The notes under the pieces were generated by a model. That model saw nothing but the letters and a program-made list of their open reading frames with translations. It was not told the origin of the DNA and searched no databases. From a virus: 51,557 nt of DNA. The position numbers and the translations under genes were made by a program. This document shows, piece after piece, positions 1 to 51,557 of this stretch. The first letter of the stretch is position 1. Each line of letters starts with the position of its first letter. The stretch is from the IMG/VR virus record IMGVR_UViG_3300028887_000011, positions 1 to 51,557 of that record. One strand, given 5' to 3'.

Positions 1-127
1 AAGAATGGACATTAAATTTGAGAATAAAGGTAAGCAAATTTCAGGAGTATCAAAATATTGGTTGGTATGGTTTATATTCATACTTGTTTTGATGTATATG
101 TTCGATTCAAAATTACCATTATTTCTG
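1..127. repeat. Left copy of the 127-bp terminal direct repeat, identical to 51431..51557
   Basis: Read directly. Both copies run from aagaatggacattaaatttg to aattaccattatttctg. Confidence 0.95.
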
Positions 128-205
128 ATAGTTCCTGCAGTGGTATGTGTGCCAGTTGGAAATCCAATACAAATGATACTGGAGGTAAGAAAATGCTCAA
201 AATAG
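5..205 (+). CDS. Small predicted membrane protein (66 aa, two hydrophobic segments)
   Basis: ATG 5 equals ATG 51435, which follows AGGAGAGG (51421-51428) by 6 nt. Hydrophobic stretches are YWLVWFIFILVLMYMF and LPLFLIVPAVVCVPV. The gene spans the artificial contig junction. Confidence 0.45.
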   Translation: MDIKFENKGKQISGVSKYWLVWFIFILVLMYMFDSKLPLFLIVPAVVCVPVGNPIQMILEVRKCSK

Positions 206-858
206 AAAATGTAGAAACAATGAATTGGAGAGCTGCTATTCGTGGTATGAGAAATCCACTTGAAAGTTGGCATAAATCAGATAGTGGATTTAGTACAGGT
301 AATTTTGATTTGCCATGTATTATAGGTCCTAATGACCTTGATTTAATGCAGAGACTTGCTAATGCAGGTACCGACCATTCAAAGTTCCTTAGAATGATAA
401 CTGTAAGTTTTGATATTTCTGCACCATTATATTGGTGGAAGGAATTTGATACTTATAAAATTGGTACTGTAAGAAACAGCTGCTCTACTATGCATAAGAT
501 AGAATCAAAAGAACTTTGCATACTTGATTTTTCAATCGATGGTTTGGAGTATGAAGATTTAAATGTACTTAAGGTTGTCATAAATCGAATAAACACATTG
601 ATTGATGTATATAATAATCATTTTCAATCTGATGCAGAATACAGAAAACGTCTGCACAGAAGAATAATAAAACTTCTGCCAGATTGTTATATGCAAAGGG
701 CAACAATAACAACCAATTATCAGGTATTAAGGGCAATCAGAAATTCACAAAGAAAAACACATAAGCTTGAAGAGTGGGCAGATGATTTTATGAAATTTAT
801 TGATAGCTTACCATATGCAAAGGAGCTGCTAATTGATGAAAAGAGAACAAATATGTAA
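193..858 (+). CDS. ThyX (Thy1)-fold protein with a degenerate active-site motif
   Basis: ORF 58..858 trimmed to ATG 193 behind GGAGGTAAG (181-189). HSKFLRMITVSFDISAPLYWWKEF and TTNYQVLRAIRNSQR resemble the ThyX core. The RHRxxS...SxR dUMP-binding motif is replaced by TYKIGT...CST. Confidence 0.5.
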   Translation: MLKIENVETMNWRAAIRGMRNPLESWHKSDSGFSTGNFDLPCIIGPNDLDLMQRLANAGTDHSKFLRMITVSFDISAPLYWWKEFDTYKIGTVRNSCSTMHKIESKELCILDFSIDGLEYEDLNVLKVVINRINTLIDVYNNHFQSDAEYRKRLHRRIIKLLPDCYMQRATITTNYQVLRAIRNSQRKTHKLEEWADDFMKFIDSLPYAKELLIDEKRTNM

Positions 859-4747: not shown

Positions 4748-4819
4748 GTCTCCCGCTCCTCGGGAATAAAGTTAAAATAAAAAAATAAAGTTTTTTTGCA
4801 AAATTTTTTCAAAAACCTA

Positions 4820-4848
4820 TTGACAAACCCAAAATTACATGATATAAT
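4820..4848 (+). promoter_or_regulatory. Consensus promoter P2 with extended -10
   Basis: TTGACA 4820-4825, TG 4840-4841, TATAAT 4843-4848. Shares the block ttttcaaaaacctattgacaaa with P6 and P7. Confidence 0.8.
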
Positions 4849-4917
4849 AAATACAGAGATTGAGAGATACAACTCAATCAGAAAATTTAAGTTTCAAGTT
4901 TGAAAGGAAGTATTATT

Positions 4918-6022: not shown

Positions 6023-6097
6023 TGGGGTATGGCCAAGAGGTAAGGCATCAGACTTTGACTCTGTGTACCGTGAGTTCGATTCTCACTACCCCAACCA
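6023..6097 (+). tRNA. tRNA-Gln (anticodon UUG) with encoded CCA
   Basis: Hand-folded cloverleaf. Acceptor TGGGGTA/TACCCCA with the U1-A72 pair typical of bacterial tRNA-Gln. Anticodon loop CTTTGAC. T-arm GTGAG-TTCGATT-CTCAC. Confidence 0.85.
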
Positions 6098-6102
6098 ATA
6101 AT

Positions 6103-6189
6103 GTCTCTGTGGTGGAATTGGCAGACACGATTGACTCAAAATCAATTATCTGAAAAGATGTACGAGTTCGACTCTCGTCAGAGGCACCA
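6103..6189 (+). tRNA. tRNA-Leu (anticodon CAA), class II long variable arm, encoded CCA
   Basis: Acceptor GTCTCTG/CAGAGGC. Anticodon stem ATTGA/TCAAT with loop CTCAAAA. Variable arm ATCT-GAAA-AGAT. T-arm ACGAG-TTCGACT-CTCGT. Confidence 0.85.
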
Positions 6190-18300: not shown

Positions 18301-18393
18301 GAAGTAGTTATGGTTGATACAACTGAAAGAACTATTGAAACAAAAATGGTTGGCTATTATGGCAGTAGACAAGACCGAAGTTTTGAGTATTAA
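15379..18393 (+). CDS. Tail-fibre-like protein with tandem duplicated modules and a C-terminal calcineurin-like metallophosphoesterase domain
   Basis: GTG start after AAAGGAGAG. The N-terminal SIVGAINE motif is common in phage fibres. Phosphoesterase motifs are TDNHG, GDVVHG, GNHED, SHVPL and GHTHRQ. Confidence 0.7.
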   Translation: MPQVIVLEDGTTIVPYNSDRTGAQMDRAMDRGDSVGDISQLNTTDKSSIVGAINETSSEIANVTPAATAASKNFANEYAKNTRSIFASGLAWEQGTRYENGTTASATNRIRSMVGLSLPVGTTFTAATGYKITVIGANEASTTWYFTSGWVTTYTLKDNCNCYLLIAKSDDTSINIGDVDIDSILGIVVPNDSSAYYTDINVAAVGVIDTTTGQPSSTTNRAYTDFTSVRSGDIIGAKFGNDVRIYVHKYDFERAYLGNNGAWIKGGYYTVGSEAFIRLSISYADDRTVTTTDFATFESDIYVQRKTASLYDASTAQEEKISDINAEVVSHNMNLAGEYSEGVRKLYTSYLAWEQGTRQADGSTGSAANRIRSMTGLMLPVGTVVKATSNYKVVIIGANKDSDEWYFTSGWVNEFTVKDNCNCYFVLSKANSANLSVDDTPIDSIVTVEVPTEPIFTTGITMSAVGTIDTSTGQPSSTTNRAYTEFFNVNAGDLIGIRNGNNDRIYVHKYDERYNYLGNNGAWIKGSFYTVGTEKYIRLTTSFSDDRTVTTDMFATFEADIYVQRKVVNLYNADGEQADNSTALKNGFAIEQMPYLIQQGGYDGSGGIVSNNKRVRSSDWFELDSDCVIKNLDPAIGVNLVWKTGTSIGSWGWIEGAFEYEIPYVEGRVFKITAHYTDEATALSIGDYLSNVHIFKTSDAITIDKDELLPNWKSKVNEIQALQGTKFTFGVQTDNHGYDIDTNVKITPLKNLTKYIGFDFICNLGDVVHGYSADTKESMQLSLTEAIKRYTDGVCCPFLYALGNHEDDILYTTEGTQNNDLDEVILGDELYGRTIAKVKNTCQIHQPYRGFYYYVDFDEIRVIVLNTRDIAWQAISSSDIDISHHVISQTQITWLNDVAFNTTKKVIILSHVPLLDSLNAGIDNPVENGAAVRSVIEAHANQMIGCFSGHTHRQASDTSNGITYIVFANGGQFAEVVMVDTTERTIETKMVGYYGSRQDRSFEY
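15595..17076 (+). repeat. Intragenic tandem duplication (two ~234-aa copies: 15595..16296 and 16378..17076)
   Basis: The copies align along their length, for example LAWEQGTR...NRIRSM...KDNCNCY...TGQPSSTTNRAYT...RIYVHKYD...GNNGAWIKG...DDRTVTT...ATFE.DIYVQRK. Confidence 0.85.
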
Positions 18394-20893: not shown

Positions 20894-23020
20894 ATGGCAA
20901 ACAATCCATTAATTTATAAAAATGCTGAAAAAGTAAGGGATTCAATTACAGAATCTCAGAAAAAACAAATAGCAAAGTTATATGACGATTGGGCAAAAGA
21001 TATTGCTAAGATGGCAGAATATTACAAGAATAAAACAACAGCATCTGCTCCTTTATCAGCAAGGTATTATGAAGAACTTATGGCTCAATTAACCGAGACT
21101 TCACATCAAGTAAGTAATGAGGTGTATAAAGGACTTAAGCAAAGTATGTATCTTGTATCTGATGCGGTAATTGCAGATAATACAAAATGGCTTGAAAAGT
21201 TTGGCTTTCCAAAAGATGGATTGAATGCTGCATTTAGTTATGTTCCCGATAGTGTGGTAAGGTCAATTGCAACTGGTCAAGTATATGATTCAGGTTGGAG
21301 CTTATCGAAAAGAATTTGGGGAGATAATGAACAAACCATGCAAGACCTTTATAGGATAGTTGCTGGAGGTGTAGCTAAGCAGACACCGATTTATGATATA
21401 GCTAAACAACTTGAAAAATACGTTAAGCCAGGAGCTGCTAAACAATGGAATTTGACAGACAAAGATGGTAGAAAAATATATCCAAGACAAGTTGATTATA
21501 ATGCTCAGAGATTGGCAAGAACTTTAGTTCAGCATAGTTATCAGCAAGCATTTACTGCTGTATGTGAAAAAAATCCTTTTATAACTGATTATATTTGGAA
21601 TGCAAATGGCTCAAGAGTGTGTGAGATATGTAAAATGAGAGACGGACAACATTTCAAAAAAGACGAATTACCACTTGACCATCCAAATGGAATGTGTGTA
21701 ATGGAACCAAATGTGGTAGATGATATGACAAAGCAACTGGTAAATTGGTTTAATTCAGATGATGGAACATATCCTGAAATTGATGAATTTGCAAAGCAAT
21801 TTGGATATGATTCAAGTAAGTTTGAAGCACCAAAGTTTACCGATTTGCAAAACAAATATTTATTGCCATATGGTTTTAGTCCAAATAATATGCCAACAAA
21901 ATTTGAAGATTGGTCCTATAAAGTTTCATTTGACCAAGCATCAGAAATTCTTGCATCTATGGGAACAAGTTGGGGTGACCCACATCCATATCAAAAGCTG
22001 AAACAATATTTTGATGCTAATTTAGCAGGTGTTGGTACCAATATGCTTAATCAGCAAAAAGTTCAAGTGCAAACTCAACCTAAAAAGGAAGAAAAGAAAG
22101 TTAAGGTTGCTGAATTTACATATTGGCAGAATAAGTATCTTGGTCCTTATGGTTATAAAGCGGGCGAAAATATACCAAATTATGAAACATGGTATTTTAA
22201 TGCTACTTTCAAAGATATAAATAAAATGCAAAAAGAGGCTGAAAAGCTCGGCATGTCAATTGAAGATTTTTATGCTAAAAAAGTTGAAAAAGTCAAGTAT
22301 AAATATAAAACAGTTGAAGAGGCTAAAGTACTTGCTAGTGCAATTTCAAATGCAAATACTACCAACATTATCGACACATCAAGTTGGATAAGCATGGTTA
22401 AAAAGAACAATGAATCAGAAATTTTAGCAATAGAAGATGCAAAGAGAAAATTGCTAAGTACAGAAGAAGAAAAAGCTCTGCATAAATATACAGGTAGTGC
22501 TTATCGAACAATTAATGGATATTTGAGAGATAAAGCTGCTGGCAAGATTGATAAACCTGATGCAGATTTAGAAAAGTTAATTGCAGAAATGAGTTCAGGT
22601 TTGGAAAAGATGAAACTTGACAAAGACCTTTATGTTCGTAGAGGAACAGACTTGGGAGATTTGGCTGGTTTATTTATGACTGGCGATTTTAGTTCAAACG
22701 AATCAAGTTTATATGGAAAAACATCGGAAGAATTAAATGCAATGTTTCAAGGAGCAATTGGTGAATATGCAGGCTTTACAAGTACAAGTTCATTATGGAA
22801 CAGAGGTTTCTCTGGTTCTGTTGAAGTTGTTATGCGATTACCAGAAGGTACATCGGCTCAAAGTGTAATGAGAATAAGTCAATATGGAACAAGCGAAGGT
22901 GAAACTTTGCTTGACCATGGAATGAAAGTAAAGTGTTTGCTTATTGAAAAATCAGATGGACACCAGAGCTCAGCACACAGAGTATATCTTGATGTAATAC
23001 CTAAAAAAGAAAATAATTAA
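20894..23020 (+). CDS. SPP1 gp7 / Mu F-like minor head protein fused to a C-terminal ADP-ribosyltransferase domain
   Basis: Mu F-like signature NANGSRVCEICKMRDGQHF...PLDHPNGMCVMEP. ART motifs are YTGSAYRTINGYL, YVRRG (R), FTSTS (STS) and SEGETLL (ExE). Confidence 0.8.
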   Translation: MANNPLIYKNAEKVRDSITESQKKQIAKLYDDWAKDIAKMAEYYKNKTTASAPLSARYYEELMAQLTETSHQVSNEVYKGLKQSMYLVSDAVIADNTKWLEKFGFPKDGLNAAFSYVPDSVVRSIATGQVYDSGWSLSKRIWGDNEQTMQDLYRIVAGGVAKQTPIYDIAKQLEKYVKPGAAKQWNLTDKDGRKIYPRQVDYNAQRLARTLVQHSYQQAFTAVCEKNPFITDYIWNANGSRVCEICKMRDGQHFKKDELPLDHPNGMCVMEPNVVDDMTKQLVNWFNSDDGTYPEIDEFAKQFGYDSSKFEAPKFTDLQNKYLLPYGFSPNNMPTKFEDWSYKVSFDQASEILASMGTSWGDPHPYQKLKQYFDANLAGVGTNMLNQQKVQVQTQPKKEEKKVKVAEFTYWQNKYLGPYGYKAGENIPNYETWYFNATFKDINKMQKEAEKLGMSIEDFYAKKVEKVKYKYKTVEEAKVLASAISNANTTNIIDTSSWISMVKKNNESEILAIEDAKRKLLSTEEEKALHKYTGSAYRTINGYLRDKAAGKIDKPDADLEKLIAEMSSGLEKMKLDKDLYVRRGTDLGDLAGLFMTGDFSSNESSLYGKTSEELNAMFQGAIGEYAGFTSTSSLWNRGFSGSVEVVMRLPEGTSAQSVMRISQYGTSEGETLLDHGMKVKCLLIEKSDGHQSSAHRVYLDVIPKKENN

Positions 23021-38594: not shown

Positions 38595-38623
38595 TTGACA
38601 AATGAAAAATTATGTGGTATAAT
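38595..38623 (+). promoter_or_regulatory. Consensus promoter P6 with extended -10
   Basis: TTGACA 38595-38600, TG 38615-38616, TATAAT 38618-38623. Confidence 0.8.
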
Positions 38624-38998: not shown

Positions 38999-39027
38999 TT
39001 GACAAACACAAATTTACGTGATATAAT
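38999..39027 (+). promoter_or_regulatory. Consensus promoter P7 with extended -10
   Basis: TTGACA 38999-39004, TG 39019-39020, TATAAT 39022-39027. The upstream A/T block is duplicated. Confidence 0.8.
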
Positions 39028-41542: not shown

Positions 41543-42391
41543 ATGGGTTTACTCGATAAAATCAAATCAGATGTTGCTAAATCAGGCAGCAACAAAGGCA
41601 AGTTTATCTATTTCAGAGAAGGTCAAAAGGTCCGTGTACGTTTCCTCAATGACATGGACGAGGGCATGGAAGTAAAGTTCCATGACAGTTTTGAAAGAGG
41701 TATAAATGTTCCTTGTCAGGAACTGTTCGGCAGAAACTGTGCATATTGCGAAGATGATGATTTAAGAACCAGAAGTCAGTATGTATGGTCGGTATATGAT
41801 TATGAATCAAAGGAAGTTAAACTGTTCATGTTTGCAGTAAATAACTGTTCACCAATACCTGCTCTTATGGCAATGTATGAAACATATGGAACATTAACTG
41901 ACAGAGATTTTGTAATAACTGTGACAGGTAAGCAGCAGAACAAAACATTCTCTGTGGTTCCTATGGACAAAAACAAATTCAGAAATGAAAAGGCAAAACC
42001 TTTCTCAGAAAAGGCAATACTTAAAATGCTTGATAAGGCATTTCCTGCTGATGATTCAGACGACGACGAGGACGACGACGAGGACGAAGATGAGGACGAA
42101 AGACCTGCAAAGAAATCTAAGTCAACAAAGGGAGGCAATACAAGGGCAAAAGCCAAGGCTGAGCCTGAAGAAGATGATGCAGACTGGGAGGACGATGATG
42201 AAGCCGAGCAGGACTATTCAGAAATGACGCCTAAGGAACTTTTCAAGCTCTGCAAAGATAGAGACATTGAAGTTGTTCCAAAGAAGCCAGCGAAGTACTA
42301 CATCAACCTGCTTGAGGAATATGATGCTGCTCAGGAAGATTGGTCGGAAGATGATGAGGACGACGAAGAGGAGTGGGAAGATGATGAGTGA
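41543..42391 (+). CDS. T4 gp32-like ssDNA-binding protein with an acidic C-terminal region containing a HeH-like module
   Basis: VRVRFLND...KFHDSF...PC...NCAYC parallels the gp32 RFLP...H...C...CxxC zinc site. QYVWSVYDY corresponds to SYWANILVV. The tail ends EEEWEDDE. Confidence 0.6.
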   Translation: MGLLDKIKSDVAKSGSNKGKFIYFREGQKVRVRFLNDMDEGMEVKFHDSFERGINVPCQELFGRNCAYCEDDDLRTRSQYVWSVYDYESKEVKLFMFAVNNCSPIPALMAMYETYGTLTDRDFVITVTGKQQNKTFSVVPMDKNKFRNEKAKPFSEKAILKMLDKAFPADDSDDDEDDDEDEDEDERPAKKSKSTKGGNTRAKAKAEPEEDDADWEDDDEAEQDYSEMTPKELFKLCKDRDIEVVPKKPAKYYINLLEEYDAAQEDWSEDDEDDEEEWEDDE

Positions 42392-42818
42392 ATCGCAAAA
42401 TGGCTCGACACAGAAGAGGTCCCTTTCTGATTGGAATAAAATGATTGTTCCAAATGAAACTGCTTTTAGTACACTGTTTAAAATGCAGATGAAAAATCAG
42501 GATTTAATAATGTCCACAGGCTTGTATGAGGGATTTGTATATGAGCAAAAAGATTTGCCAACCGATGATACAAAATTGATGTCATATCATATTTTGCAAT
42601 TAATGTCAGAGATTGGCGAACTGCTTGATTCAGATAAGCGTTGGAAGAATTTTCGCAATGCAAAGTTTGAAAAGGACGAGAAGCTCATGGAACTTGCAGA
42701 TTGCTTTATTGTCTTAATGAACATAACAATATTTTCAGGATTTTCTGCCGATGAAATTGTGCAAGCAATTGCTGATAAGATAGTGACAGTGCGAAAGCGA
42801 ATAGAAGATAAGATGTAA
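42381..42818 (+). CDS. All-alpha NTP pyrophosphohydrolase (MazG / dimeric dUTPase-dCTPase superfamily)
   Basis: ILQLMSEIGELLDSDKRWKNF and KLMELADCFIVLMNI fit the ExxE...WK...ExxD pattern. ATG 42381 overlaps the end of the SSB gene. Confidence 0.55.
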   Translation: MMSESQNGSTQKRSLSDWNKMIVPNETAFSTLFKMQMKNQDLIMSTGLYEGFVYEQKDLPTDDTKLMSYHILQLMSEIGELLDSDKRWKNFRNAKFEKDEKLMELADCFIVLMNITIFSGFSADEIVQAIADKIVTVRKRIEDKM

Positions 42819-42826
42819 CAAAATCG

Positions 42827-42867
42827 GGAACGAGGAGTATGTGGTGTACTCCTCAGGTTCCTTATTT
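42827..42867 (+). terminator. Intrinsic terminator-like hairpin (13 bp with a 2-nt bulge) followed by TTATTT
   Basis: GGAACGAGGAGTA-tgtggtg-TACTCCTCagGTTCC, then TTATTTCT. Confidence 0.55.
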
Positions 42868-42879
42868 CTGGAGGGAAAA

Positions 42880-43431
42880 ATGGTTATAATAGTTGAAGGC
42901 ATTGACCGTATAGGAAAAACAACTTTATGCAATGCTTTATCAAAAAAGCTCGGTTTTCCAATTTACAAAGAACTTGGTGTCGAAAAGAAATCAAGAGAGG
43001 GAAATGTAAGGTCGCAAATGGCTCTTATAGGCCTGTGTCAGAAAACAGATTGCAATGTAATATTTGACAGAATGTTTACATCAGAGTGTGTCTATGGAAT
43101 GATTGACAGAGGGTACCCAATAAAATATGCAATTAATGATTTTAATTGTGCTCTTGCTGAGGCGGCTAAAATACCACATCTGGTATATGTTGGAATGAAG
43201 TCAACTGACATAAAAAAATCATCGGCAGAACATGGAAAAGAATTATCAAAACATGAGTGCATGTTTGATACAATGCAAAATTTTGTAAAGGAAAAAATTG
43301 ACAAGGTTTTTCTTGAATGCACTTATTTTGATATTGATAATCTTGTTGAAAAAATTTATGCTTATTATCTTGATTGTAAGGAGGAAATAGAGCATGCAAA
43401 GTGTACAGGTACAATTGACAACGAAGTGTAA
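42880..43431 (+). CDS. Thymidylate-kinase-fold dNMP kinase
   Basis: P-loop IVEGIDRIGKTT (compare EGxDGxGKTT) and FDRMFTSECVYG (DRY/F motif). ATG 42880 follows GGAGGG. Confidence 0.6.
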   Translation: MVIIVEGIDRIGKTTLCNALSKKLGFPIYKELGVEKKSREGNVRSQMALIGLCQKTDCNVIFDRMFTSECVYGMIDRGYPIKYAINDFNCALAEAAKIPHLVYVGMKSTDIKKSSAEHGKELSKHECMFDTMQNFVKEKIDKVFLECTYFDIDNLVEKIYAYYLDCKEEIEHAKCTGTIDNEV

Positions 43432-44260
43432 TGAAAGATGCTTTATGTGTAGGAAATACACATGGGAAAAGAAAGAAATTCCTTTTGAAGTTTTATTTGA
43501 AAAAATAAATAAGTACAAAGAAGCTAATTTCACATTTTCAGGCGGCGACCCACTTGAGTATTCAGAATTAAAAGCCTTGACTGAATTGCTCGTAAAAAAT
43601 AATATACGTTATCAGGTGTTTACAAATATGAATTATAATTTGACACCTGCTATGGAAGAATTTTTGCAGAATGCAGAATGCATACAAGTAAGCTTAGATG
43701 GCTCAACAGAAGAAGTATATAATTATGTTCGCAGACCAATTGAAAATGGTTTGATGTATGTAATTCACAATATTGAAAGATTCAAGTTAAAGGTCAAGGC
43801 AAATTGCACAGTATCAAATAGAAATTATCTTGATGTTCCAAATATCTATAACTTGGCAAAGCAGCTTGATGTTCCTATCAGATTTTTCCCTGTGCATACG
43901 CATGATGATGCAATGATAACATCTGAAATGTATAAAAGACTGGAATATAAAGTTTTAGGAGAAGAACCTCCCGAGGAAATTCAGAAATTATGCAAATTAA
44001 TGTCAGAAGGCAGACCGGAGTTCAGCAGTTGCTGGGTAAAGAGAGAGCACAGGGTGATAGATGAAAGTGGAAAAGAATATCCTTGTTGCAGAGCAATAAA
44101 TGATAATGGGGAAGATTGGGACGGAAAATATTCAATAGATAATTTGGAAGGTATAGAAAATGAAAATATTTTATATCCTTTCTGCAAAGGTTGCGATAGA
44201 TACATTAAGTTCAATACAAACAAAGAAAAGTATAAAAGAAAGGTTGGTCAATATTTATGA
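43394..44260 (+). CDS. Radical SAM enzyme with a Cys-rich (SPASM/twitch-like) C-terminal region
   Basis: CNERCFMC (CxxxCxxC, nt 43427-43450), FSGGDPLE and QVSLDGSTEEVYNYVRR. C-terminal cysteines are C...CC...CKGC. GGAGG upstream. Confidence 0.75.
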   Translation: MQSVQVQLTTKCNERCFMCRKYTWEKKEIPFEVLFEKINKYKEANFTFSGGDPLEYSELKALTELLVKNNIRYQVFTNMNYNLTPAMEEFLQNAECIQVSLDGSTEEVYNYVRRPIENGLMYVIHNIERFKLKVKANCTVSNRNYLDVPNIYNLAKQLDVPIRFFPVHTHDDAMITSEMYKRLEYKVLGEEPPEEIQKLCKLMSEGRPEFSSCWVKREHRVIDESGKEYPCCRAINDNGEDWDGKYSIDNLEGIENENILYPFCKGCDRYIKFNTNKEKYKRKVGQYL

Positions 44261-45405
44261 AAATTTTGTGGATACCGCAGATAAGCAGCAAGTCGATGGA
44301 CGGAAAAGTTTTATTGAATAAAGATAGCAATATGTCAGTTCTCAGAAACTTAATAGGAACCGATTTGACAGAAAAAAATAAAATAACCGTTGCATTTGAA
44401 TTTGCACCCGGAAACTGCCTCATAGATAAAGAGGTAAAAAATAATTTTGATTTGGTGTTCGATGAAACACATGAGTTTACAAATGCAATGCTTGAAAGAA
44501 TGCATTTTAATATCGATTATTTTATTGATATTAGAAAAATGAATTTTGACATTGTATTTACAAACGAACCGACAAAGGTTATTCCTTTAAGGAAGATTTT
44601 TACGAATATCCCAGTTGTCTGCTATAACCATTGGTTGGCATTCAAAAATATGCCAGAAATATCATTGAGGCAGGTAGAAGGAATGGCAGCAGCTGATTGT
44701 TGTTTCGTTAATTCAAACTATGTAGCCGAAATGGTAAATAATCATTATGTTGGTACATCAGATTTGAGTAGAATACATTTTGTTAAAGCTCAGCCGTCTT
44801 TTGCTGGCGATATTTATCCGGTTAATAAGGTAGATTCATCTGCAGCATTTATTTACAATCACAGGCTCAGTTCTGACCCCTACTATGCTGATGCTTATAA
44901 ATCTTTATGTCAAATATGCGACATATTAGAAAAGTACTTAGGAAAAGAAGGCAAGCCAATGCCAACAATATATTTTACAAATCCAAGCGGTAAGAGTTTC
45001 AAGTTTGATAAGGAATATTTTAAAGAGATACATTTGGAATCGCAAGAGGAATATAGAAAGTTTTTGAGGTCAAATAAAATCTGCGGTCATTTGAATACAT
45101 TTTTTAATTCAGCAGGAATGTGGTCAATGTCAACAGTTGATTGTGCTGCTGCTGGCAATCCTTGTATTGTTCCAAAAAAATATGGATATGCAGAAATATT
45201 TGAGGAAACATATTATGGATATGTCAAAAATGTGGAAGAGGCTGCTTTCAAAATATATGAATTAATTATGCACCCTGAAGTATGTGTAAAATATAAAAAT
45301 TCATTTATCGAGAATCACACAAATAAAGTGATAGGTAAATTGATGAATGATGAGCTTGAAAAGTGGGTAAATATATATAATATTCCAGTGTGTGGAGGAA
45401 AATAA
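44257..45405 (+). CDS. GT-B fold (GT4-like) glycosyltransferase
   Basis: DIVFTNEP, ADCCFVNSNYVAEMV, FIYNHRLS and GMWSMSTVDCAAAGNPCIVPKKYGYAEIFEE resemble the GT4 layout, but the EX7E glutamates are not conserved. ATGA overlap with the radical SAM gene. Confidence 0.5.
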   Translation: MKILWIPQISSKSMDGKVLLNKDSNMSVLRNLIGTDLTEKNKITVAFEFAPGNCLIDKEVKNNFDLVFDETHEFTNAMLERMHFNIDYFIDIRKMNFDIVFTNEPTKVIPLRKIFTNIPVVCYNHWLAFKNMPEISLRQVEGMAAADCCFVNSNYVAEMVNNHYVGTSDLSRIHFVKAQPSFAGDIYPVNKVDSSAAFIYNHRLSSDPYYADAYKSLCQICDILEKYLGKEGKPMPTIYFTNPSGKSFKFDKEYFKEIHLESQEEYRKFLRSNKICGHLNTFFNSAGMWSMSTVDCAAAGNPCIVPKKYGYAEIFEETYYGYVKNVEEAAFKIYELIMHPEVCVKYKNSFIENHTNKVIGKLMNDELEKWVNIYNIPVCGGK

Positions 45406-45406
45406 A

Positions 45407-46078
45407 ATGTATATCAATATGGTATGTGAATGTGATACTGCTACACAAGCTTTCGATTGGTGGTACGATAAACTTGTTCGTATGAGTGATTCACAAGAAT
45501 CAAGAGACGGAGAAGTGCACGGCGAAATTATAAATGCAATAACAGTTATCTCAGACCCAACAAGAAATATCTGCAAGTCAGATATACGCAAGTTGTCTAT
45601 GAGATATGCAATGGGAGAATTTCTTTGGTACTTGTCTGGCAACAATAATCTTTCAGAAATTCAGAAATACACAAACAACTGGGACAGAATGTCAGATGAT
45701 GGTAAAACAGTAAACTCAAATTATGGTTATTGTATTCAGCATAAATATGGCTTTAATCAGTTAGATTATATTTATAATTTGCTGAAAGAAAAGCCAGAGA
45801 CGAGGCAGGCTGTTATCCATATAAAAGCACCTGATAATTCAGAAAGCAAAGATGTAAATTGCACGGTTTGTTTACAATTTTTCATTCGAGAAAATAAGTT
45901 GTATATGACAACCTACATGAGGTCAAATGATATATGGCTTGGTTTTCCATATGATGTTTTTCAATTCTGCAATTTGCAGATATTACTGAGTATGAAACTC
46001 GGCATAGAGCTTGGCTCATATACACATATTGCAGGTTCATTGCATTTGTATGAAAGAGATGTGAAAAAAGATGTTTGA
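45407..46078 (+). CDS. Thymidylate-synthase-fold pyrimidine hydroxymethylase, T4 gp42 (dCMP hydroxymethylase)-like
   Basis: EFLWYLSG, VNSNYGY, PETRQAVIH, NCT (Cys152, nt 45860-45862), MRSNDIWLGFPYDV (Asp183, nt 45953-45955) and GSLHLYERD. Closely parallels the gp42 segments INSNYGW, MRSNDVVFGFRNDY and GSLHVYSRH. Confidence 0.75.
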   Translation: MYINMVCECDTATQAFDWWYDKLVRMSDSQESRDGEVHGEIINAITVISDPTRNICKSDIRKLSMRYAMGEFLWYLSGNNNLSEIQKYTNNWDRMSDDGKTVNSNYGYCIQHKYGFNQLDYIYNLLKEKPETRQAVIHIKAPDNSESKDVNCTVCLQFFIRENKLYMTTYMRSNDIWLGFPYDVFQFCNLQILLSMKLGIELGSYTHIAGSLHLYERDVKKDV

Positions 46079-48806
46079 TTTGCATAGGCATGATAATTTT
46101 TCAATATTCGATGGGTTTGGAAATCCAAAAGAACTAGCTGCTTTAGCAAAAGAAATAGGATATACTGCCTTAGGTATAACCAATCATGGAAATACAAATG
46201 GATTGGTTCAGCATTATTTCGCATGCAAAGAAGCAGGCATTAAGCCAGTGCTTGGAGTAGAGGGCTACTTTCTCCCTAAATATAAATCTCAGACGAGGGG
46301 CTACCATTTGATTTTGGTGGCAAAGAATGCAACTGGCTATAAGAACATGAACACCATACAATTCTTAGGAGAAAAGCAAAAGTATTATAACCCAATATGG
46401 GATTTTTCAATGCTGGAAAAATATCACGAAGGATTGATTTGTTCGTCTGCTTGTGTGGCTGGATTTTTAGCTCAGTGCATTATAAAAAATGAGTATGAAA
46501 AAGCAGAAAAGTTTTTGAGAAAAATGCAGGATATTTTTGAAGATGATTTTTATGTAGAGATTCAGCCATACAAAATATCCGATGAAGGTGTGCAAGAGCA
46601 TATCAATGTAGAATCAATAAAGTTAGCAAAGAAGCTTGGTATAAAATGTATTTTGACTTCTGACTCGCATAGAGGTAGAAAAGAGGATTTTGATTCGTAT
46701 TTGAAAATGCATGAAATTTCAAAGCATGATGAAGCATGGGTAAGGGGAACATATGAGGAAAGATATATGCCTGCTCCAACAGAAATGCAAAAGAGATTTG
46801 TAAAAATGCATATAAAAGATTTTGGAAAAGAAAAGGCTATTAAGCTGGCAAAAGAAATGGCTAAGAATGTAGCAGAGATAGAAGAAAAAGTTGAGCCCGA
46901 TATAATGGAACAACTCGAGTTGGTGATGCCAAAGATTGAGGATTCAGATTCGGTACAAAATCTGAAAAATGAAGTTATCAAAGGTTTGAAAGAAAAAGGC
47001 CTGTATAAAAAAGAGTATATTGAAAGATGCAAAGAAGAATTAAAGGTAATCATAAGTCATGGTTTTGCTGACTACTTTTTGGTTGTGCAAGATTATGTAA
47101 GATGGGCAAAACAAAGAGGAATTATAGTTGGACCAGGAAGAGGTTCTGTTTGTAATTCAGAAGTTGCTTATGCTTTAGGAATTACAGAAGTGGATTCAAT
47201 TATGTTTGGCTTGGACTTCAGACGTTTTCTTCGTATGGATAAAAAGAAAATACCTGATATTGACTTGGATTTTGAAACATCACGAAGAAAAGAAGTTATT
47301 GATTATCTAATAAAAAAGTATGAAGGTCATGCGGCAAGAATATGTGCTTACGGTTTATATCGAGTTGACAATACAATAAATGATTTGGCTTCTGTTTGTG
47401 GTTTAAGATTTTCCGGAACAGATTTGGACGAATCAGAAAAGAAGCGAAATAAATCAATTGTTGCAGATATAAAAGCATTTGCTAAACAATATGTTGAAGG
47501 CGAGGAACTTGATAAAGATGGCTTAATGTCAGATGATAGATACAAGATGTATAATGCAGAATATGATAACATAATGAAGCACTTTACAAAATTGTATAAA
47601 AAGGTTAGATACATCGGAACTCATGCTGCAGGTGTTGCTATTACAGGTGGAGATTTATCGCAATATACAGCAGTAAGAATCGATAAAGATGGAAACTATT
47701 TCACAAATTATGATTTGATAGACATTGAAAAAGTCAATGTAATTAAGTTCGATATTCTCGGCCTGCAAACAATGGAAAGTATAGGAGATTTAAGAAAGTC
47801 GACAGGTGTCACAGTTGATTATTCAGAAGTTGTAAATGATGAAAAGATTTTGAAAGCATTCAGAGAAGGAACATGCGATGGTATATTCCAGTTCGATTCT
47901 GTAACACCAAGGGGGATTCTAAAAAAGATTGAATGCGATTGTTTTGAAGATGCGGTTGCTGCTTCATCTATGAATCGTCCAGGACCATTGCAATTAAAAA
48001 TGCCAGATATGTATGCCGAGAATAAAACTAATGTTGAAGATGCAAGGGCAAGTAAATATTGGGAATATACTCAGGACACTTATGGCACAATTGTTTACCA
48101 AGAACAGATTATGCTAATTTGTGTAAATATAGGTGAAATGGAATGGGCAACTGCTGATAAAATTATCAAGATGATGAAGTCAACTTCTCAGAAGGCAGAA
48201 GAGGCTGCAGAGCAAAAAAGACTTGGTCAAAATTTATTGGAGGAGTTTTGGACAGGTGCTAAAAAGAAAGGATTTACAAAAGAAGAAGCCGAAGATTTAT
48301 TTGTAAAAATGACAGATTCATATTCATTCAACAAAGGACATGGTGTAGGCTATACATTAATATCATTCGAGGAAATGTTTTATAAAGTTTATTATCCGAC
48401 TGAATATTGGTTTTCCAAAATTAAGTATGCAAAAGATGATAAGCAATATAGAATATTTTGCGAAAAAGCTGTAAAAGATGGTTCAATAGTTTTCTTGCCA
48501 CATGTCAATTATTCTTCGGAAAGAACAAGGCTCAGAAAGATTGAAGGGGAAAATGCAATCCAGCAAGGTTTATCAGATATATTGGGTGTAGGAGAAAAGG
48601 CAGCTCAATATATTTTTGAAGAAAGAAAAAAGAACGGTGTATTTATTTCGTACGATGATTTTTATGACAGGTGCAAATCAAGAGTGGTGACATCAAGGGT
48701 AATAAATATATTGTTAGAATCAGGTGCACTTGAGTTCAATAAAAAGACATATATTAGCAGAATAAAAAAATATAATTCTGCATTATATGCACAAGCAAAT
48801 AGATGA
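46071..48806 (+). CDS. dnaE: DNA polymerase III alpha-type replicative polymerase (PHP plus Pol IIIa core), compact 911 aa
   Basis: FDLHRHDNFSIFDG (PHP), GPGRGSVCNSEVAYALGIT, DIDLDFE, KFDILGLQT, GIFQFDS, MNRPGP, YQEQIM and FNKGHGVGY. Confidence 0.9.
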   Translation: MFDLHRHDNFSIFDGFGNPKELAALAKEIGYTALGITNHGNTNGLVQHYFACKEAGIKPVLGVEGYFLPKYKSQTRGYHLILVAKNATGYKNMNTIQFLGEKQKYYNPIWDFSMLEKYHEGLICSSACVAGFLAQCIIKNEYEKAEKFLRKMQDIFEDDFYVEIQPYKISDEGVQEHINVESIKLAKKLGIKCILTSDSHRGRKEDFDSYLKMHEISKHDEAWVRGTYEERYMPAPTEMQKRFVKMHIKDFGKEKAIKLAKEMAKNVAEIEEKVEPDIMEQLELVMPKIEDSDSVQNLKNEVIKGLKEKGLYKKEYIERCKEELKVIISHGFADYFLVVQDYVRWAKQRGIIVGPGRGSVCNSEVAYALGITEVDSIMFGLDFRRFLRMDKKKIPDIDLDFETSRRKEVIDYLIKKYEGHAARICAYGLYRVDNTINDLASVCGLRFSGTDLDESEKKRNKSIVADIKAFAKQYVEGEELDKDGLMSDDRYKMYNAEYDNIMKHFTKLYKKVRYIGTHAAGVAITGGDLSQYTAVRIDKDGNYFTNYDLIDIEKVNVIKFDILGLQTMESIGDLRKSTGVTVDYSEVVNDEKILKAFREGTCDGIFQFDSVTPRGILKKIECDCFEDAVAASSMNRPGPLQLKMPDMYAENKTNVEDARASKYWEYTQDTYGTIVYQEQIMLICVNIGEMEWATADKIIKMMKSTSQKAEEAAEQKRLGQNLLEEFWTGAKKKGFTKEEAEDLFVKMTDSYSFNKGHGVGYTLISFEEMFYKVYYPTEYWFSKIKYAKDDKQYRIFCEKAVKDGSIVFLPHVNYSSERTRLRKIEGENAIQQGLSDILGVGEKAAQYIFEERKKNGVFISYDDFYDRCKSRVVTSRVINILLESGALEFNKKTYISRIKKYNSALYAQANR

Positions 48807-48825: not shown

Positions 48826-48854
48826 TTGACATTTTTCAGAAAATGTGATATAAT
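48826..48854 (+). promoter_or_regulatory. Consensus promoter P8 with extended -10
   Basis: TTGACA 48826-48831, TG 48846-48847, TATAAT 48849-48854. Confidence 0.8.
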
Positions 48855-49885: not shown

Positions 49886-50073
49886 TGGAAAAGTGTAAGA
49901 ATTGCAAATGCTTTGATAACAAAAGACCTGTATCGACATCGACAAGAAATGATGCATATAAAAATGCAGAAAAGTACATTGGATATTGTAAAAATACAAA
50001 TAGGCCAACAATGATGAATGATGGCTGCTTATATTTTGAACCGAAGGAGAAAAGCAATGAGCAGATTAAGTAA
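49885..50073 (+). CDS. Small Cys-rich protein (CKNCKC...C...C)
   Basis: ATG 49885 overlaps the recA stop (TGATG). GAGGAGGA lies 9 nt upstream. Confidence 0.45.
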   Translation: MEKCKNCKCFDNKRPVSTSTRNDAYKNAEKYIGYCKNTNRPTMMNDGCLYFEPKEKSNEQIK

Positions 50074-50494
50074 AGATGAATATTATTTGCAGATTGCAAA
50101 TGCTGTTTCTGAAAGAAGTACTTGCTTAAAAAGAAAGTATGGTTGTGTAATTGTCAAGAATGATGAAATTATTGCAACAGGTTATAATGGAAATCCAAGG
50201 GGAGAAAAAAATTGTTGTGATGTAGGAAAATGTGGAAGAATGAATAAGCCACATAATTCTGGCGATTATTCAGATTGTCACAGTGTTCATGCAGAACAGA
50301 ATGCCATGTTATCAGCTGCAAGAAAAGATATGATTGGTTCGACAATGTATATTGCAGGTATTGAGCCAATTCCTTTTTCTGGATATACCCAAGAAATATA
50401 TCCTTGCGAACCATGCCCCATTTGTGAAAGAATGATACGAAATGCAGGTATAAAAAAAGTGGTAACAATAAGTGGGGTAAAAGATTATGAGTAA
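50057..50494 (+). CDS. dCMP deaminase (ComEB/Cd type)
   Basis: STCLKRKYGCVIV, GYNG, HAEQNA and PCPICERMIRNAGI. ATG 50057 follows GAAGGAG. Confidence 0.85.
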   Translation: MSRLSKDEYYLQIANAVSERSTCLKRKYGCVIVKNDEIIATGYNGNPRGEKNCCDVGKCGRMNKPHNSGDYSDCHSVHAEQNAMLSAARKDMIGSTMYIAGIEPIPFSGYTQEIYPCEPCPICERMIRNAGIKKVVTISGVKDYE

Positions 50495-51430: not shown

Positions 51431-51557
51431 AAGAATGGACATTAAATTTGAGAATAAAGGTAAGCAAATTTCAGGAGTATCAAAATATTGGTTGGTATGG
51501 TTTATATTCATACTTGTTTTGATGTATATGTTCGATTCAAAATTACCATTATTTCTG
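51431..51557. repeat. Right copy of the 127-bp terminal direct repeat, identical to 1..127
   Basis: Read directly. Confidence 0.95.

What the first reader, a model, noticed from the sequence alone, without database searches (positions are those of the whole stretch)
42381..46078. T4-style cytosine-replacement gene set plus an extra radical SAM enzyme: candidate undescribed DNA hypermodification pathway
What the sequence shows:
- One tightly packed run encodes an all-alpha NTP pyrophosphatase (42381..42818), a Tmk-fold dNMP kinase (42880..43431), a radical SAM enzyme (43394..44260), a GT-B glycosyltransferase (44257..45405) and a gp42-like pyrimidine hydroxymethylase (45407..46078).
- The radical SAM gene overlaps the kinase gene by 38 nt. 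The glycosyltransferase overlaps the radical SAM gene by ATGA. The hydroxymethylase starts 1 nt after the glycosyltransferase stop and overlaps dnaE.
- A dCMP deaminase (50057..50494) and a ThyX-like gene (193..858) lie close by across the circular junction.

Established knowledge: T4 replaces C with glucosyl-5hmC using gp42 (hydroxymethylase), gp1 (kinase), gp56 (dCTPase), a glucosyltransferase, Cd and Td.

Inference: every T4 role has a candidate here, in a siphovirus-like Gram-positive-type phage. The radical SAM/Cys-rich enzyme sits between kinase and glycosyltransferase and has no T4 counterpart. This predicts 5-hydroxymethyl-pyrimidine DNA that is glycosylated and possibly tailored further. 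An alternative reading is that the kinase acts on hydroxymethyl groups in DNA, as in the thymidine hypermodification systems that also use radical SAM enzymes.
Basis: partly seen in the sequence, partly recalled or inferred. Interest (0 to 1): 0.85.

Follow-up and report, generated by a model that had tools for sequence, protein, structure and literature searches.

The report
Phage cytosine-hypermodification island with radical SAM
A gut-type phage carries the T4-like genes for replacing cytosine with 5-hydroxymethylcytosine, plus a new sugar transferase and a radical SAM enzyme that always travel together, which predicts a DNA base modification that has not yet been described.

Summary
The five genes are real, tightly packed, and probably co-transcribed with primase, SSB and DnaE.

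- **Hydroxymethylase:** the thymidylate-synthase homologue has the T4 gp42/MilA signature (Cys146, L143D, N177D, Asp169 kept). It lacks the D169N signature of the RB69-type 5-hydroxy-dCMP synthases. 5hm-dCMP is therefore the predicted product.
- **Kinase:** it is Tmk/YorR-like, not like the thymidine base kinases (5-HMUDK).
- **Transferase:** it is a confident GT-B/GT4-like fold from a small phage-only family.
- **Radical SAM enzyme:** it is a twitch/SPASM-type enzyme from an equally small phage-only family. Its nearest solved structure is BlsE, which decarboxylates a sugar attached to cytosine.

Across 45 related phage contigs the backbone NTPase–kinase–[cassette]–hydroxymethylase–[cassette]–DnaE is constant, while the cassette varies.
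- 28 contigs carry a radical SAM enzyme.
- Each radical SAM subtype is locked to one transferase family.
- Several relatives add NDP-heptose or mannose-type sugar-activation genes.

What failed: the "ThyX-like" gene is not supported, and the thymidine-type reading is rejected.

Verdict: a probable glycosyl-5hmC pathway with radical tailoring. It is a new variant of a known kind, and the chemistry is unproven.

The parts
38999..39027 (+). Perfect sigma-70-type promoter (12/12 with TG). It is the likely start of the transcription unit that runs through dnaE.
   Evidence: No other 12/12 promoter lies on the + strand between here and 48826. This is a consensus match only.
42381..42818 (+). All-alpha NTP pyrophosphatase (dUTPase_2/MazG-like). 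Candidate dCTPase that removes dCTP from the pool, the role of T4 gp56.
   Evidence: Pfam PF08761 6.7e-5 (23.7 bits, cut-off 22.9) and phrog_173 2.8e-9. Conserved at this position in 46 loci. Substrate not determined.
42880..43431 (+). P-loop dNMP kinase (Tmk/YorR-like). Candidate 5hm-dCMP kinase, the role of T4 gp1.
   Evidence: Thymidylate_kin 3e-6, phrog_761 2e-12, PDB YorR 2axp 0.004 with a shared DR motif. The nearest phage hits are YorR/thymidylate kinases, and no 5-HMUDK phage is hit.
43394..44260 (+). Radical SAM enzyme with a C-terminal twitch/partial-SPASM cysteine cluster. Candidate tailoring enzyme.
   Evidence: PF04055 2.9e-10. The family conserves C12/C16 (at least 90%) and C19, Met18 and the GG of the SGGDP motif (invariant), plus C213, C231, C232, C264 and C267. 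AF2 pLDDT 91.7. Best fold hit is BlsE 7vob, E 1.3e-12, TMq 0.67. Only 35 close clusters were found, all metagenomic, several on phage-sized contigs.
44257..45405 (+). GT-B-fold (GT4-like) glycosyltransferase of a small phage-only family. Candidate DNA 5hmC glycosyltransferase.
   Evidence: AF2 pLDDT 92.1. Foldseek hits: ManT 7qsg, MshA, BshA, PglA and the phage HY126 glycosyltransferase 9ir0. Viral hits: Arthrobacter phage and SP-15 GTs and phage DNA alpha-GTs. It lies directly after the window-type rSAM in every locus that holds it. Some relatives fuse it to a mannose-6-P-isomerase cupin.
45407..46078 (+). Thymidylate-synthase-fold dCMP hydroxymethylase (T4 gp42/MilA type).
   Evidence: PF00303 1.4e-27. 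Best PDB hit is MilA CMP hydroxymethylase, 1.2e-27. Alignment with E. coli ThyA and T4 gp42 shows C146 kept, L143D, N177D and D169 kept. The residue rules come from PMC13326640.
46071..48806 (+). DnaE-type replicative polymerase, translationally coupled to the hydroxymethylase. It would have to incorporate 5hm-dCTP.
   Evidence: 8-nt overlap. PHP/DNA_pol3_alpha domains in the homologues.
50057..50494 (+). dCMP deaminase, the role of T4 Cd. It supplies dUMP.
   Evidence: PF00383 3.6e-22 and phrog_174 2.9e-47.

Best explanation
This is the DNA-modification island of a roughly 51.4-kb siphovirus-like phage of anaerobic Firmicutes.

**Before replication (inferred from homology and diagnostic residues)**
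- The NTP pyrophosphatase depletes dCTP.
- The TS-fold enzyme converts dCMP to 5-hydroxymethyl-dCMP.
- The Tmk-like kinase phosphorylates that product.
- The phage DnaE then builds 5hmC DNA.
- The dCMP deaminase feeds dUMP to the host thymidylate synthase.

**After replication (inferred from fold and context)**
- The GT-B transferase puts a sugar from an NDP-sugar onto the 5-hydroxymethyl group. The donor is host-supplied in this phage. In relatives it appears to be phage-made and heptose- or mannose-type.

**Radical SAM step (inferred, chemistry unknown)**
- The twitch/SPASM radical SAM enzyme is genetically locked to this transferase. It remodels that sugar by hydrogen-atom abstraction, either on the DNA or on the donor.
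- My preferred specific guess is a BlsE-like oxidative/decarboxylative or rearranging step on a base-linked sugar.

The product would protect the DNA from host nucleases.
For: **Gene set and coupling**
- Searches give the gene set and the overlaps.
- There is no strong internal promoter between 39.0 and 48.8 kb.

**Hydroxymethylase:** L143D, N177D, D169 and C146 are shared with T4 gp42 and with all relatives. The rules are stated in PMC13326640. The best solved relative is MilA.

**Transferase:** a high-confidence GT-B model. It resembles retaining GT4 enzymes and phage glycosyltransferases, including annotated DNA alpha-GTs.

**rSAM**
- The motifs are intact across 25 diverse members.
- The nearest structure is BlsE, both by single-sequence search (2.7e-5) and by fold.
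- It shares BlsE's unusual CxxxCxMC motif.

**Comparative genomics**
- 45 distinct contigs keep NTPase-kinase-[cassette]-TS-[cassette]-DnaE.
- 28 of them have an rSAM.
- rSAM subtype 0 goes with GT#7 in all loci, subtype 1 with u#5+u#6 (9/9), and subtype 2 with u#10 (6/6).
- Every rSAM locus has a transferase, but 14 transferase loci have no rSAM.
- Relatives add HddA plus an HddC/GmhB/GmhA fusion (a full NDP-heptose route), RfaE-domain-II-like nucleotidyltransferases, a PMI cupin fused to the GT, and a second GT8-like gene.
- The cultured relative, Agathobaculum phage AB434P2, has the same backbone with a different cassette.
Against: - There are no chemical data of any kind.
- The NTPase match is at threshold and its substrate is unknown.
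- The kinase matches Tmk mainly at the P-loop.
- The GT has no sequence-level match to any characterised DNA glycosyltransferase. There is no canonical EX7E spacing from the invariant Glu313 (my reading).
- The rSAM and GT families have near-neutral pI, so there is no sign of a DNA-binding surface.
- BlsE is only marginally ahead of the sactisynthases, viperins and MoaA. The NCBIfam BlsE model scores 30.8 bits against a cut-off of 400.
- A decarboxylase reading does not fit the heptose genes of the relatives.
- No thymidylate synthase was found in the phage.
Confidence: 0.6

Rival explanations
1. The pathway is the same, but the radical SAM enzyme works before transfer. It would convert a host NDP-sugar, or a phage-made NDP-heptose/mannose, into an unusual donor. 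The GT-B enzyme then transfers that donor to 5hmC DNA. No radical chemistry happens on the DNA itself.
For: - GT#7 is never found without the window-type rSAM. That would follow if the GT needs an rSAM-made donor.
- DesII, an rSAM that acts on a nucleotide sugar (my recollection, not tested here), is among the fold hits.
- Neutral pI gives no hint of DNA binding.
Against: - The closest structure, BlsE, acts on a sugar already joined to a base.
- The only rSAM proven in DNA hypermodification, M6 gp53, acts on polymeric DNA (PMC8989533).
- The rSAM-GT pair stays the same whether or not relatives carry sugar-activation genes, and whichever kind they carry.
Confidence: 0.2
2. The transferase and the radical SAM enzyme do not touch DNA. 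They would glycosylate or modify a virion protein, a host envelope polymer or a peptide. On this reading they merely sit in the replication operon.
For: - GT4-like folds are typical of envelope and protein glycosylation.
- The next-best structural relatives of the rSAM are peptide-modifying sactisynthases (CteB, SuiB, SkfB).
- There is no sequence match to a known DNA glycosyltransferase.
Against: - In all 45 contigs the variable transferase/rSAM cassettes occupy only the slots flanking the hydroxymethylase, inside the nucleotide/replication operon. Start and stop codons overlap there.
- No precursor peptide or envelope gene matched among the cassette representatives that were scanned.
Confidence: 0.1
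3. This is an RB69/DLP3-type pathway. The TS homologue would make 5-hydroxy-dCMP, and the sugar would be attached by an ether link directly to C5-OH.
For: - The architecture is the same: a TS homologue, a dNMP kinase, GT-B transferases and phage sugar-nucleotide genes (PMC13326640).
- The HY126 glycosyltransferase is among the fold hits.
Against: - The diagnostic D169N substitution is absent. Asp169 is invariant in the window protein and in all relatives.
- That chemistry needs a flavin and O2. An oxygen-labile radical SAM partner suggests an anaerobic host, although the host itself was not identified here.
Confidence: 0.04
4. This is thymidine-type hypermodification. The TS homologue would make 5hm-dUMP, the kinase would phosphorylate 5hmU in DNA, and the rSAM would act like the M6 gp53 isomerase.
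For: A P-loop kinase and a radical SAM enzyme lie side by side, as in phage M6 (PMC8989533).
Against: - Position 177 is Asp (dCMP-type), not Asn.
- No aGPT-Pplase/AADT and no PLP enzyme matched among the island, flanking and other window proteins that were scanned.
- The kinase is Tmk/YorR-like and finds no 5-HMUDK-bearing phage.
- The rSAM has no tblastn match in any of 50,697 phage records, a collection that should include M6.
Confidence: 0.03

Closest known systems
T4 (Tequatrovirus) glucosyl-5-hydroxymethylcytosine system: gp56, gp42, gp1, alpha/beta-glucosyltransferases, Cd
   Same: - The logic and roles match: an NTP pyrophosphatase, a TS-fold dCMP hydroxymethylase with L143D/N177D, a dNMP kinase, a GT-B transferase and a dCMP deaminase.
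- In T4, too, the hydroxymethylase gene lies next to a glucosyltransferase gene.
   Different: - The transferase is GT4-like and finds no phage record by tblastn, a collection that includes T4.
- The hydroxymethylase is nearer to MilA than to gp42.
- The kinase is Tmk/YorR-like.
- The polymerase is DnaE.
- No Td or ThyX was found.
- A radical SAM enzyme is added.
- The predicted donor sugars in relatives are heptose/mannose-type, not glucose.
Arabinosyl-5-hydroxycytosine pathways of RB69, DLP3 and HY126 (PMC13326640)
   Same: A TS homologue, a dNMP kinase and GT-B DNA glycosyltransferases, with phage-encoded isomerase, kinase, phosphatase and nucleotidyltransferase for the sugar donor. Some relatives of this phage have that same four-activity layout.
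   Different: - The D169N signature is absent here.
- The sugar genes of the relatives match the heptose enzymes HddA, GmhB and GmhA rather than arabinose-5-P enzymes.
- The known systems have no radical SAM enzyme: the word 'radical' occurs 0 times in that paper.
Phage M6 5-NedU thymidine hypermodification with radical SAM isomerase gp53 (PMC8989533)
   Same: It is the only proven case of a radical SAM enzyme installing a DNA hypermodification. There the rSAM tailors a group already attached to a 5-hydroxymethylpyrimidine in polymeric DNA, within a combinatorial cassette system.
   Different: - The base is thymine rather than cytosine.
- An amino acid is attached through 5-HMUDK and AADT, not a sugar through a GT.
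- The window rSAM is not detectably related to any phage rSAM in INPHARED.
Mildiomycin/blasticidin S nucleoside-antibiotic enzymes MilA, MilC/BlsD and MilG/BlsE
   Same: - The trio of activities matches: a TS-fold cytosine-nucleotide hydroxymethylase (the best PDB hit of the window enzyme), a sugar transferase, and a radical SAM enzyme acting on a sugar linked to cytosine.
- BlsE is the best PDB hit by sequence and by fold, and it shares the CxxxCxMC motif.
   Different: - Those are small-molecule pathways in Streptomyces, where the sugar is on N1 of the free base.
- The window rSAM is far below the BlsE family cut-off (30.8 bits against 400). It also has five conserved C-terminal cysteines.
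- Whether the transferases are related was not tested.
Agathobaculum phage AB434P2/AB434P3 (OP172633/OP172634), the closest cultured relatives
   Same: - The backbone is the same: SSB-like, NTPase, kinase, cassette, TS homologue (71% identical), DnaE, RecA and a Cas4-like exonuclease.
- The TS homologue also has Asp177.
   Different: The cassette holds a protein with an N-terminal EcbF/BcbF-like phosphatase region and a weak C-terminal choline-kinase-like match, an RfaE-domain-II-like nucleotidyltransferase, and two members of the u#13/u#6 transferase superfamily. It has no rSAM and no GT#7.

Membership tests
TS-fold dCMP hydroxymethylase (T4 gp42 / MilA type) | Catalytic cysteine equivalent to E. 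coli ThyA Cys146 | tested here: met
   Invariant in alignment A3 with E. coli ThyA and T4 gp42.
TS-fold dCMP hydroxymethylase (T4 gp42 / MilA type) | Asp in place of Asn177 (cytosine rather than uracil substrate) | tested here: met
   FPYD in the window protein. Asp is present in T4 gp42 and in all 9 family members aligned. The rule comes from PMC13326640.
TS-fold dCMP hydroxymethylase (T4 gp42 / MilA type) | Acidic residue in place of Leu143 (lets water in, so the product is hydroxymethyl rather than methyl) | tested here: met
   Asp at this column in the window protein, in T4 gp42 and in all relatives. MilA aligns D-V-A-C with D-V-N-C.
TS-fold dCMP hydroxymethylase (T4 gp42 / MilA type) | Formation of 5hm-dCMP from dCMP and methylene-tetrahydrofolate | not testable with these tools
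   This needs an enzyme assay, or the in vivo plasmid assay of PMC13326640.
5-hydroxy-dCMP synthase (RB69 gp48 / DLP3 gp80 type) | Asn in place of Asp169 | tested here: not met
   Asp169 is invariant in A3. The rule comes from PMC13326640.
Radical SAM superfamily | CX3CX2C cluster motif, a GGE/GGD SAM-binding motif and a partial TIM-barrel fold | tested here: met
   C12/C16/C19 and SGGDP are conserved. PF04055 2.9e-10, above its cut-off. The model matches rSAM structures at E down to 1e-12.
SPASM/twitch subgroup of radical SAM enzymes | C-terminal cysteine-rich domain that binds one or two auxiliary [4Fe-4S] clusters | tested here: inconclusive
   - Five conserved cysteines: C213, C231, C232, C264, C267.
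- Pfam SPASM scores only 15.8 bits against a cut-off of 21.5.
- The related subtypes pass SPASM.
- The best NCBIfam hits are SPASM enzymes, all far below their cut-offs.
- Metal content cannot be tested here.
BlsE/MilG cytosylglucuronate decarboxylase (TIGR04466) | Score at or above the family's curated cut-off (400 bits) | tested here: not met
   30.8 bits. BlsE is the nearest solved structure and shares the CxxxCxMC motif, but this protein is not a member of the family.
GT-B glycosyltransferase, GT4-like | Two Rossmann-like domains with the GT-B topology | tested here: met
   AF2 pLDDT 92.1, pTM 0.89. TM 0.64-0.70 to ManT, MshA, HepE, PglA and BshA.
GT-B glycosyltransferase, GT4-like | Pfam GT4/GT1 domain score above the gathering threshold | tested here: not met
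   Glyco_transf_4 scores 24.7 bits against 28.5, and Glyco_trans_1_2 scores 20.7 against 25. The family profile finds nothing in PDB sequences.
Phage DNA glycosyltransferase acting on a 5-hydroxymethylpyrimidine | Transfer of a sugar from an NDP-sugar to 5hmC in duplex DNA | not testable with these tools
   The only support is from context and from fold resemblance to the phage HY126, SP-15 and alpha-GT proteins.
Thymidine hypermodification system (5-HMUDK + aGPT-Pplase/AADT) | Presence of an aGPT-Pplase/AADT gene and a 5-HMUDK-type P-loop kinase | tested here: not met
   - No aGPT-Pplase match among the island, flanking and other window proteins that were scanned.
- The kinase's only relatives are YorR/Tmk-like.
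ThyX (flavin-dependent thymidylate synthase), claimed for 193-858 | Match to Thy1/PF02511, and the RHRxxS motif | tested here: not met
   No Pfam, NCBIfam or PDB match. Only phrog_6721, of unknown function. The translation has no RHR motif.

The most novel reading that the evidence does not exclude
The radical SAM enzyme carries out radical chemistry on a sugar already attached to 5-hydroxymethylcytosine in polymeric DNA. Candidate reactions are decarboxylation, ring contraction, dehydration or sugar-base cross-linking.

That would make it:
- a previously unseen class of hypermodified cytosine;
- the first radical SAM enzyme in cytosine hypermodification.

It would also be one module of a combinatorial 'plug-in' island. 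In phages of anaerobic gut and rumen Firmicutes, at least three rSAM subtypes are each paired with their own transferase family in this island.
Probability: 0.35. Interest if true: 0.85.

Novelty: new variant of a known kind. Interest (0 to 1): 0.72.

Why it matters
**Context.** Hypermodified phage DNA defeats restriction enzymes and CRISPR nucleases. It has also supplied reagents for epigenetics; T4 beta-glucosyltransferase is the standard example.

**What would be new.**
- In the literature I searched, cytosine hypermodifications are built by glycosyl or similar group transfer.
- Radical SAM tailoring has been shown only for thymidine, in phage M6.
- A radical SAM step on glycosyl-5hmC would add new DNA chemistry.
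- It would also be an oxygen-independent route, suited to anaerobic hosts.

**Why it is tractable.**
- The conserved backbone with swappable cassettes gives a ready-made comparative series of 45 contigs and at least six cassette types for enzyme discovery.
- A cultured relative, Agathobaculum phage AB434P2, offers an experimental entry point.

**Practical consequence.** Such DNA may be under-represented or miscalled in gut virome sequencing.

Tried and rejected
**Searches that found nothing**
- tblastn of the rSAM and of the GT against 50,697 phage records found no match. These families are therefore absent from cultured phages in that collection.
- The GT family profile against PDB sequences found nothing. 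Only the fold search was informative.

**Functions rejected for the rSAM**
- NrdG-like activase: phrog_626 scores only 0.0035, and no NrdD was seen among the ORFs scanned.
- QueE / 7-deazaguanine: phrog_2076 3.5e-5 and PDB QueE 0.11, with no other deazaguanine gene found in the island.
- Viperin-like: the fold is similar (TM about 0.57), but the NCBIfam viperin model scores 34 bits against a cut-off of 180.

**Searches that were uninformative**
- The exhaustive profile search of 1.84 billion representatives found about 45 proteins at E below 1e-30, then a continuum of rSAM/SPASM proteins. None of the 10 clusters I looked up carries a name. No cellular parent family could be named.
- pI and net charge, used as a proxy for DNA binding, were neutral and uninformative.
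- Literature searches found no description of such a cluster in the held library. I searched radical SAM + hydroxymethylcytosine + phage + glycosyltransferase, dCMP hydroxymethylase + radical SAM, cytosine hypermodification + radical, and 'Agathobaculum phage'. Subscription-only papers were not searched.

**Other checks**
- The ThyX reading of 193-858 is rejected.
- Profile-profile comparison shows that GT#7 is unrelated to the other cassette transferases (probability 1.6% or less). The families u#5, u#6, u#10 and u#13 are mostly linked to one another at 89-96%, though the u#6-u#13 pair reaches only 41%.

Full report
**1. Observation**

The ORF table reproduces the five genes and their junctions.
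- The NTPase gene (42381-42818) overlaps the stop of the upstream SSB-like gene.
- The kinase gene is 42880-43431.
- The radical SAM gene (43394-44260) overlaps the kinase gene by 38 nt.
- The transferase gene (44257-45405) starts with an ATGA overlap.
- The TS-like gene (45407-46078) starts one base after the transferase stop. It overlaps dnaE (46071-48806) by 8 nt.

Profile scans support each assignment.
- The NTPase is only just above the Pfam threshold.
- The kinase matches Tmk mainly at its N-terminus.
- The transferase is below the Pfam thresholds.

The dCMP deaminase (50057-50494) is solid. The circular-junction claim holds, because bases 1-127 equal 51431-51557.

The 'ThyX-like' gene (193-858) fails every test.

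A consensus scan finds three perfect promoters, at 38595, 38999 and 48826. It finds none inside 39.1-48.8 kb. The five genes are therefore probably co-transcribed with the Rho_N-like gene, primase, SSB-like gene and dnaE. That is an inference from consensus matches only.

**2. Which base and which C5 group**

The best solved relative of the TS homologue is MilA, a CMP 5-hydroxymethylase (1.2e-27).

I fetched E. coli thyA and T4 gene 42 and aligned them with the window protein and eight relatives.
- Cys146 is invariant.
- Leu143 is Asp in T4 gp42 and in every family member.
- Asn177 is Asp likewise.
- Asp169 is invariant.

According to PMC13326640:
- N177D marks dCMP as the substrate;
- L143D/E marks hydroxymethyl rather than methyl products;
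- D169N marks the flavin- and O2-dependent 5-hydroxy-dCMP synthases of RB69 and DLP3.

The window enzyme therefore has the gp42/MilA signature, and 5hm-dCMP is the predicted product. The closest cultured homologue is annotated as a dUMP hydroxymethyltransferase, but it has the same Asp177. That annotation is probably wrong.

**3. Kinase and the thymidine-type alternative**

- The kinase aligns with SPbeta YorR and with Tmk, including the DR motif.
- Its only phage relatives are YorR/thymidylate kinases and the Agathobaculum phage protein.
- No aGPT-Pplase/AADT matched among the window proteins I scanned.

Together with Asp177, this rejects the 5-HMUDK reading (features taken from PMC8989533).

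**4. Transferase**

- A 35-sequence alignment gave a model with pLDDT 92.1.
- It is a GT-B fold. The closest structures are retaining GT4 enzymes: ManT, MshA, HepE, PglA and BshA. The phage HY126 glycosyltransferase ranks 11th.
- Among viral models it matches an uncultured-phage protein (TM 0.75-0.78), Arthrobacter phage and Bacillus phage SP-15 glycosyltransferases, and annotated DNA alpha-glucosyltransferases.
- The family is small: 46 clusters, almost all metagenomic, several on phage-sized contigs.
- Several members carry a C-terminal mannose-6-phosphate-isomerase cupin.

**5. Radical SAM enzyme**

*Family size.* The word-indexed search found 35 close clusters, 44-96% identical, and then dropped to E 1.9e-5. 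The family is absent from 50,697 phage records.

*Conserved features.*
- The CX3CX2C cluster cysteines: C12 and C16 in at least 90% of members, C19 in all.
- An invariant Met18, giving CxxxCxMC.
- An SGGDP motif.
- Five C-terminal cysteines, consistent with one auxiliary cluster (twitch or partial SPASM).

*Structure.* The model has pLDDT 91.7. Its best structural match is BlsE, the cytosylglucuronate decarboxylase (E 1.3e-12, TMq 0.67). Next come the sactisynthases, viperins, MoaA and DesII.

*How specific the BlsE link is.*
- BlsE is also the best single-sequence PDB hit.
- BlsE has the same unusual CxxxCxMC motif (PMC3715490).
- However, the family profile ranks SkfB and a viperin-like enzyme slightly higher.
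- The BlsE family model scores 30.8 bits against a cut-off of 400.

BlsE is therefore a mechanistic lead, not a family assignment.

*Exhaustive search.* It shows a second tier of 330-357-residue relatives and then a continuum of rSAM/SPASM proteins. None of the ten clusters I looked up carries a name.

**6. Comparative genomics (the main new evidence)**

I gathered loci through the rSAM and through the TS homologue. I then mapped the window proteins onto them and clustered the genes that lie between the NTPase and DnaE.

Forty-five distinct contigs keep the order NTPase-kinase-[cassette]-TS-[cassette]-DnaE. The cassette content varies.

| Cassette family | What it looks like |
|---|---|
| rSAM | three to four subtypes |
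| GT#7 | the window's transferase |
| u#5, u#6, u#10, u#13 | weak GT-B or GT47-like matches for the first three, none for u#13; mostly linked to one another by profile comparison at 89-96% (u#6-u#13 only 41%); unrelated to GT#7 |
| u#9 | GT8-like |
| u#8, u#12 | RfaE-domain-II-like nucleotidyltransferases |
| u#11 | N-terminal EcbF/BcbF-like phosphatase region with a weak choline-kinase-like C-terminal match |

Four contigs also carry, after DnaE, an HddA-like kinase and an HddC-GmhB-GmhA fusion. Together these make a complete NDP-D-glycero-D-manno-heptose pathway.

rSAM distribution:
- 28 contigs carry an rSAM.
- 14 have only transferases.
- 3, including the cultured Agathobaculum phage, have the kinase/nucleotidyltransferase cassette.

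rSAM-transferase pairing:
- The window-type rSAM goes with GT#7 in every locus that holds either.
- Subtype 1 goes with u#5+u#6 (9/9).
- Subtype 2 goes with u#10 (6/6).
- No rSAM occurs without a transferase.

This pattern is what one expects of tailoring enzymes in a modular hypermodification island.

**7. Mechanism**

*Shown by sequence and structure prediction:* the enzyme classes, the diagnostic residues, intact cofactor motifs, and the conserved linkage.

*Inferred:*
- dCTP depletion;
- 5hm-dCMP synthesis and phosphorylation;
- incorporation by DnaE;
- post-replicative glycosylation;
- radical remodelling of the sugar.

This window has no sugar-activation gene among the ORFs I scanned. 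The donor would therefore be a host NDP-sugar.

My rough probabilities are:

| Statement | Probability |
|---|---|
| 5hmC-based replacement | 0.75 |
| The sugar is placed on DNA by this GT | 0.65 |
| The rSAM is part of the DNA-modification pathway | 0.65 |
| The rSAM acts on DNA-linked sugar | 0.35 |
| The rSAM acts on the NDP-sugar donor | 0.2 |
| The reaction is specifically a BlsE-like decarboxylation | 0.15 or less (the heptose/mannose genes of the relatives do not fit a uronic-acid substrate) |

**8. Novelty**

The searches of the held literature found:
- rSAM involvement only in thymidine hypermodification (M6 gp53);
- no rSAM in the 2026 study of glycosylated 5-hydroxycytosine;
- no paper that combines a dCMP hydroxymethylase with an rSAM in a phage cluster.

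Subscription literature was not covered.

I classify the finding as a new variant of a known kind. The scaffold is T4-like cytosine replacement and glycosylation. The additions are an unrelated transferase family, a dedicated radical SAM partner, and a combinatorial island in phages that are probably of anaerobic Firmicutes. The host evidence is a Clostridia MAG label on one homologue and the Agathobaculum host of the closest isolates.

All functional statements remain predictions until the nucleosides are measured.

Noticed in passing
window 1-127 and 51431-51557: An exact 127-bp direct repeat joins the two ends. It is most simply an assembler overlap of a circular or terminally redundant genome of about 51,430 bp.
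   Followed up: partly
It has no ThyX motif or match. It recurs in relatives L007 and L008 downstream of recA. No thymidylate synthase was found in the phage.
   Followed up: partly
window 20894-23020: A 708-aa Mu-F-like minor head protein carries a C-terminal ADP-ribosyltransferase exoenzyme domain (PF03496, 6e-28). It may be a virion-delivered toxin or effector.
   Followed up: no
window 15379-18393: A 1004-aa ORF lies between the putative terminase and portal genes. Its C-terminus is a calcineurin-like metallophosphoesterase domain, and the rest has no Pfam match.
   Followed up: no
window 6023-6189: Two adjacent tRNA genes: tRNA-Gln(TTG) and tRNA-Leu(CAA).
   Followed up: no
window 38595-38623, 38999-39027, 48826-48854: Three perfect 12/12 sigma-70 consensus promoters with an extended -10 TG, all on the + strand. 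The third lies exactly between dnaE and recA.
   Followed up: no
L002 13574-16411 (also L003, L006, L016): Relatives encode an HddA-like heptose-7-phosphate kinase and a single 613-aa fusion of nucleotidyltransferase, GmhB phosphatase and GmhA isomerase. Two genes therefore cover a whole NDP-heptose pathway, which suggests heptosylated DNA.
   Followed up: partly
L001 3838-4500 (Agathobaculum phage AB434P2, OP172633): The gene is annotated as a deoxyuridylate hydroxymethyltransferase. The protein has Asp at ThyA position 177 and Asp at 143, so it is more likely a dCMP hydroxymethylase. Its neighbours (a protein with an EcbF/BcbF-like phosphatase N-terminus and a weak kinase-like C-terminus, a nucleotidyltransferase and two transferase-like proteins) are all annotated as hypothetical.
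   Followed up: partly
L033 4380-6730: One relative carries two different radical SAM genes (subtypes 3 and 1) flanking the kinase, plus u#5 and u#6 transferases. This may be a more elaborate modification.
   Followed up: no
L010 11178-12776: Between dnaE and recA, one relative carries a DUF932 gene and a T4 endonuclease V-like pyrimidine-dimer DNA glycosylase (PF03013, 1.3e-20).
   Followed up: no
window 3929-6006: A DUF7192 protein (2e-34) is followed by an AAA ATPase (AAA_5/AAA) that matches phrog_249, labelled 'porphyrin biosynthesis'. The function of this pair in the phage is unknown.
   Followed up: no
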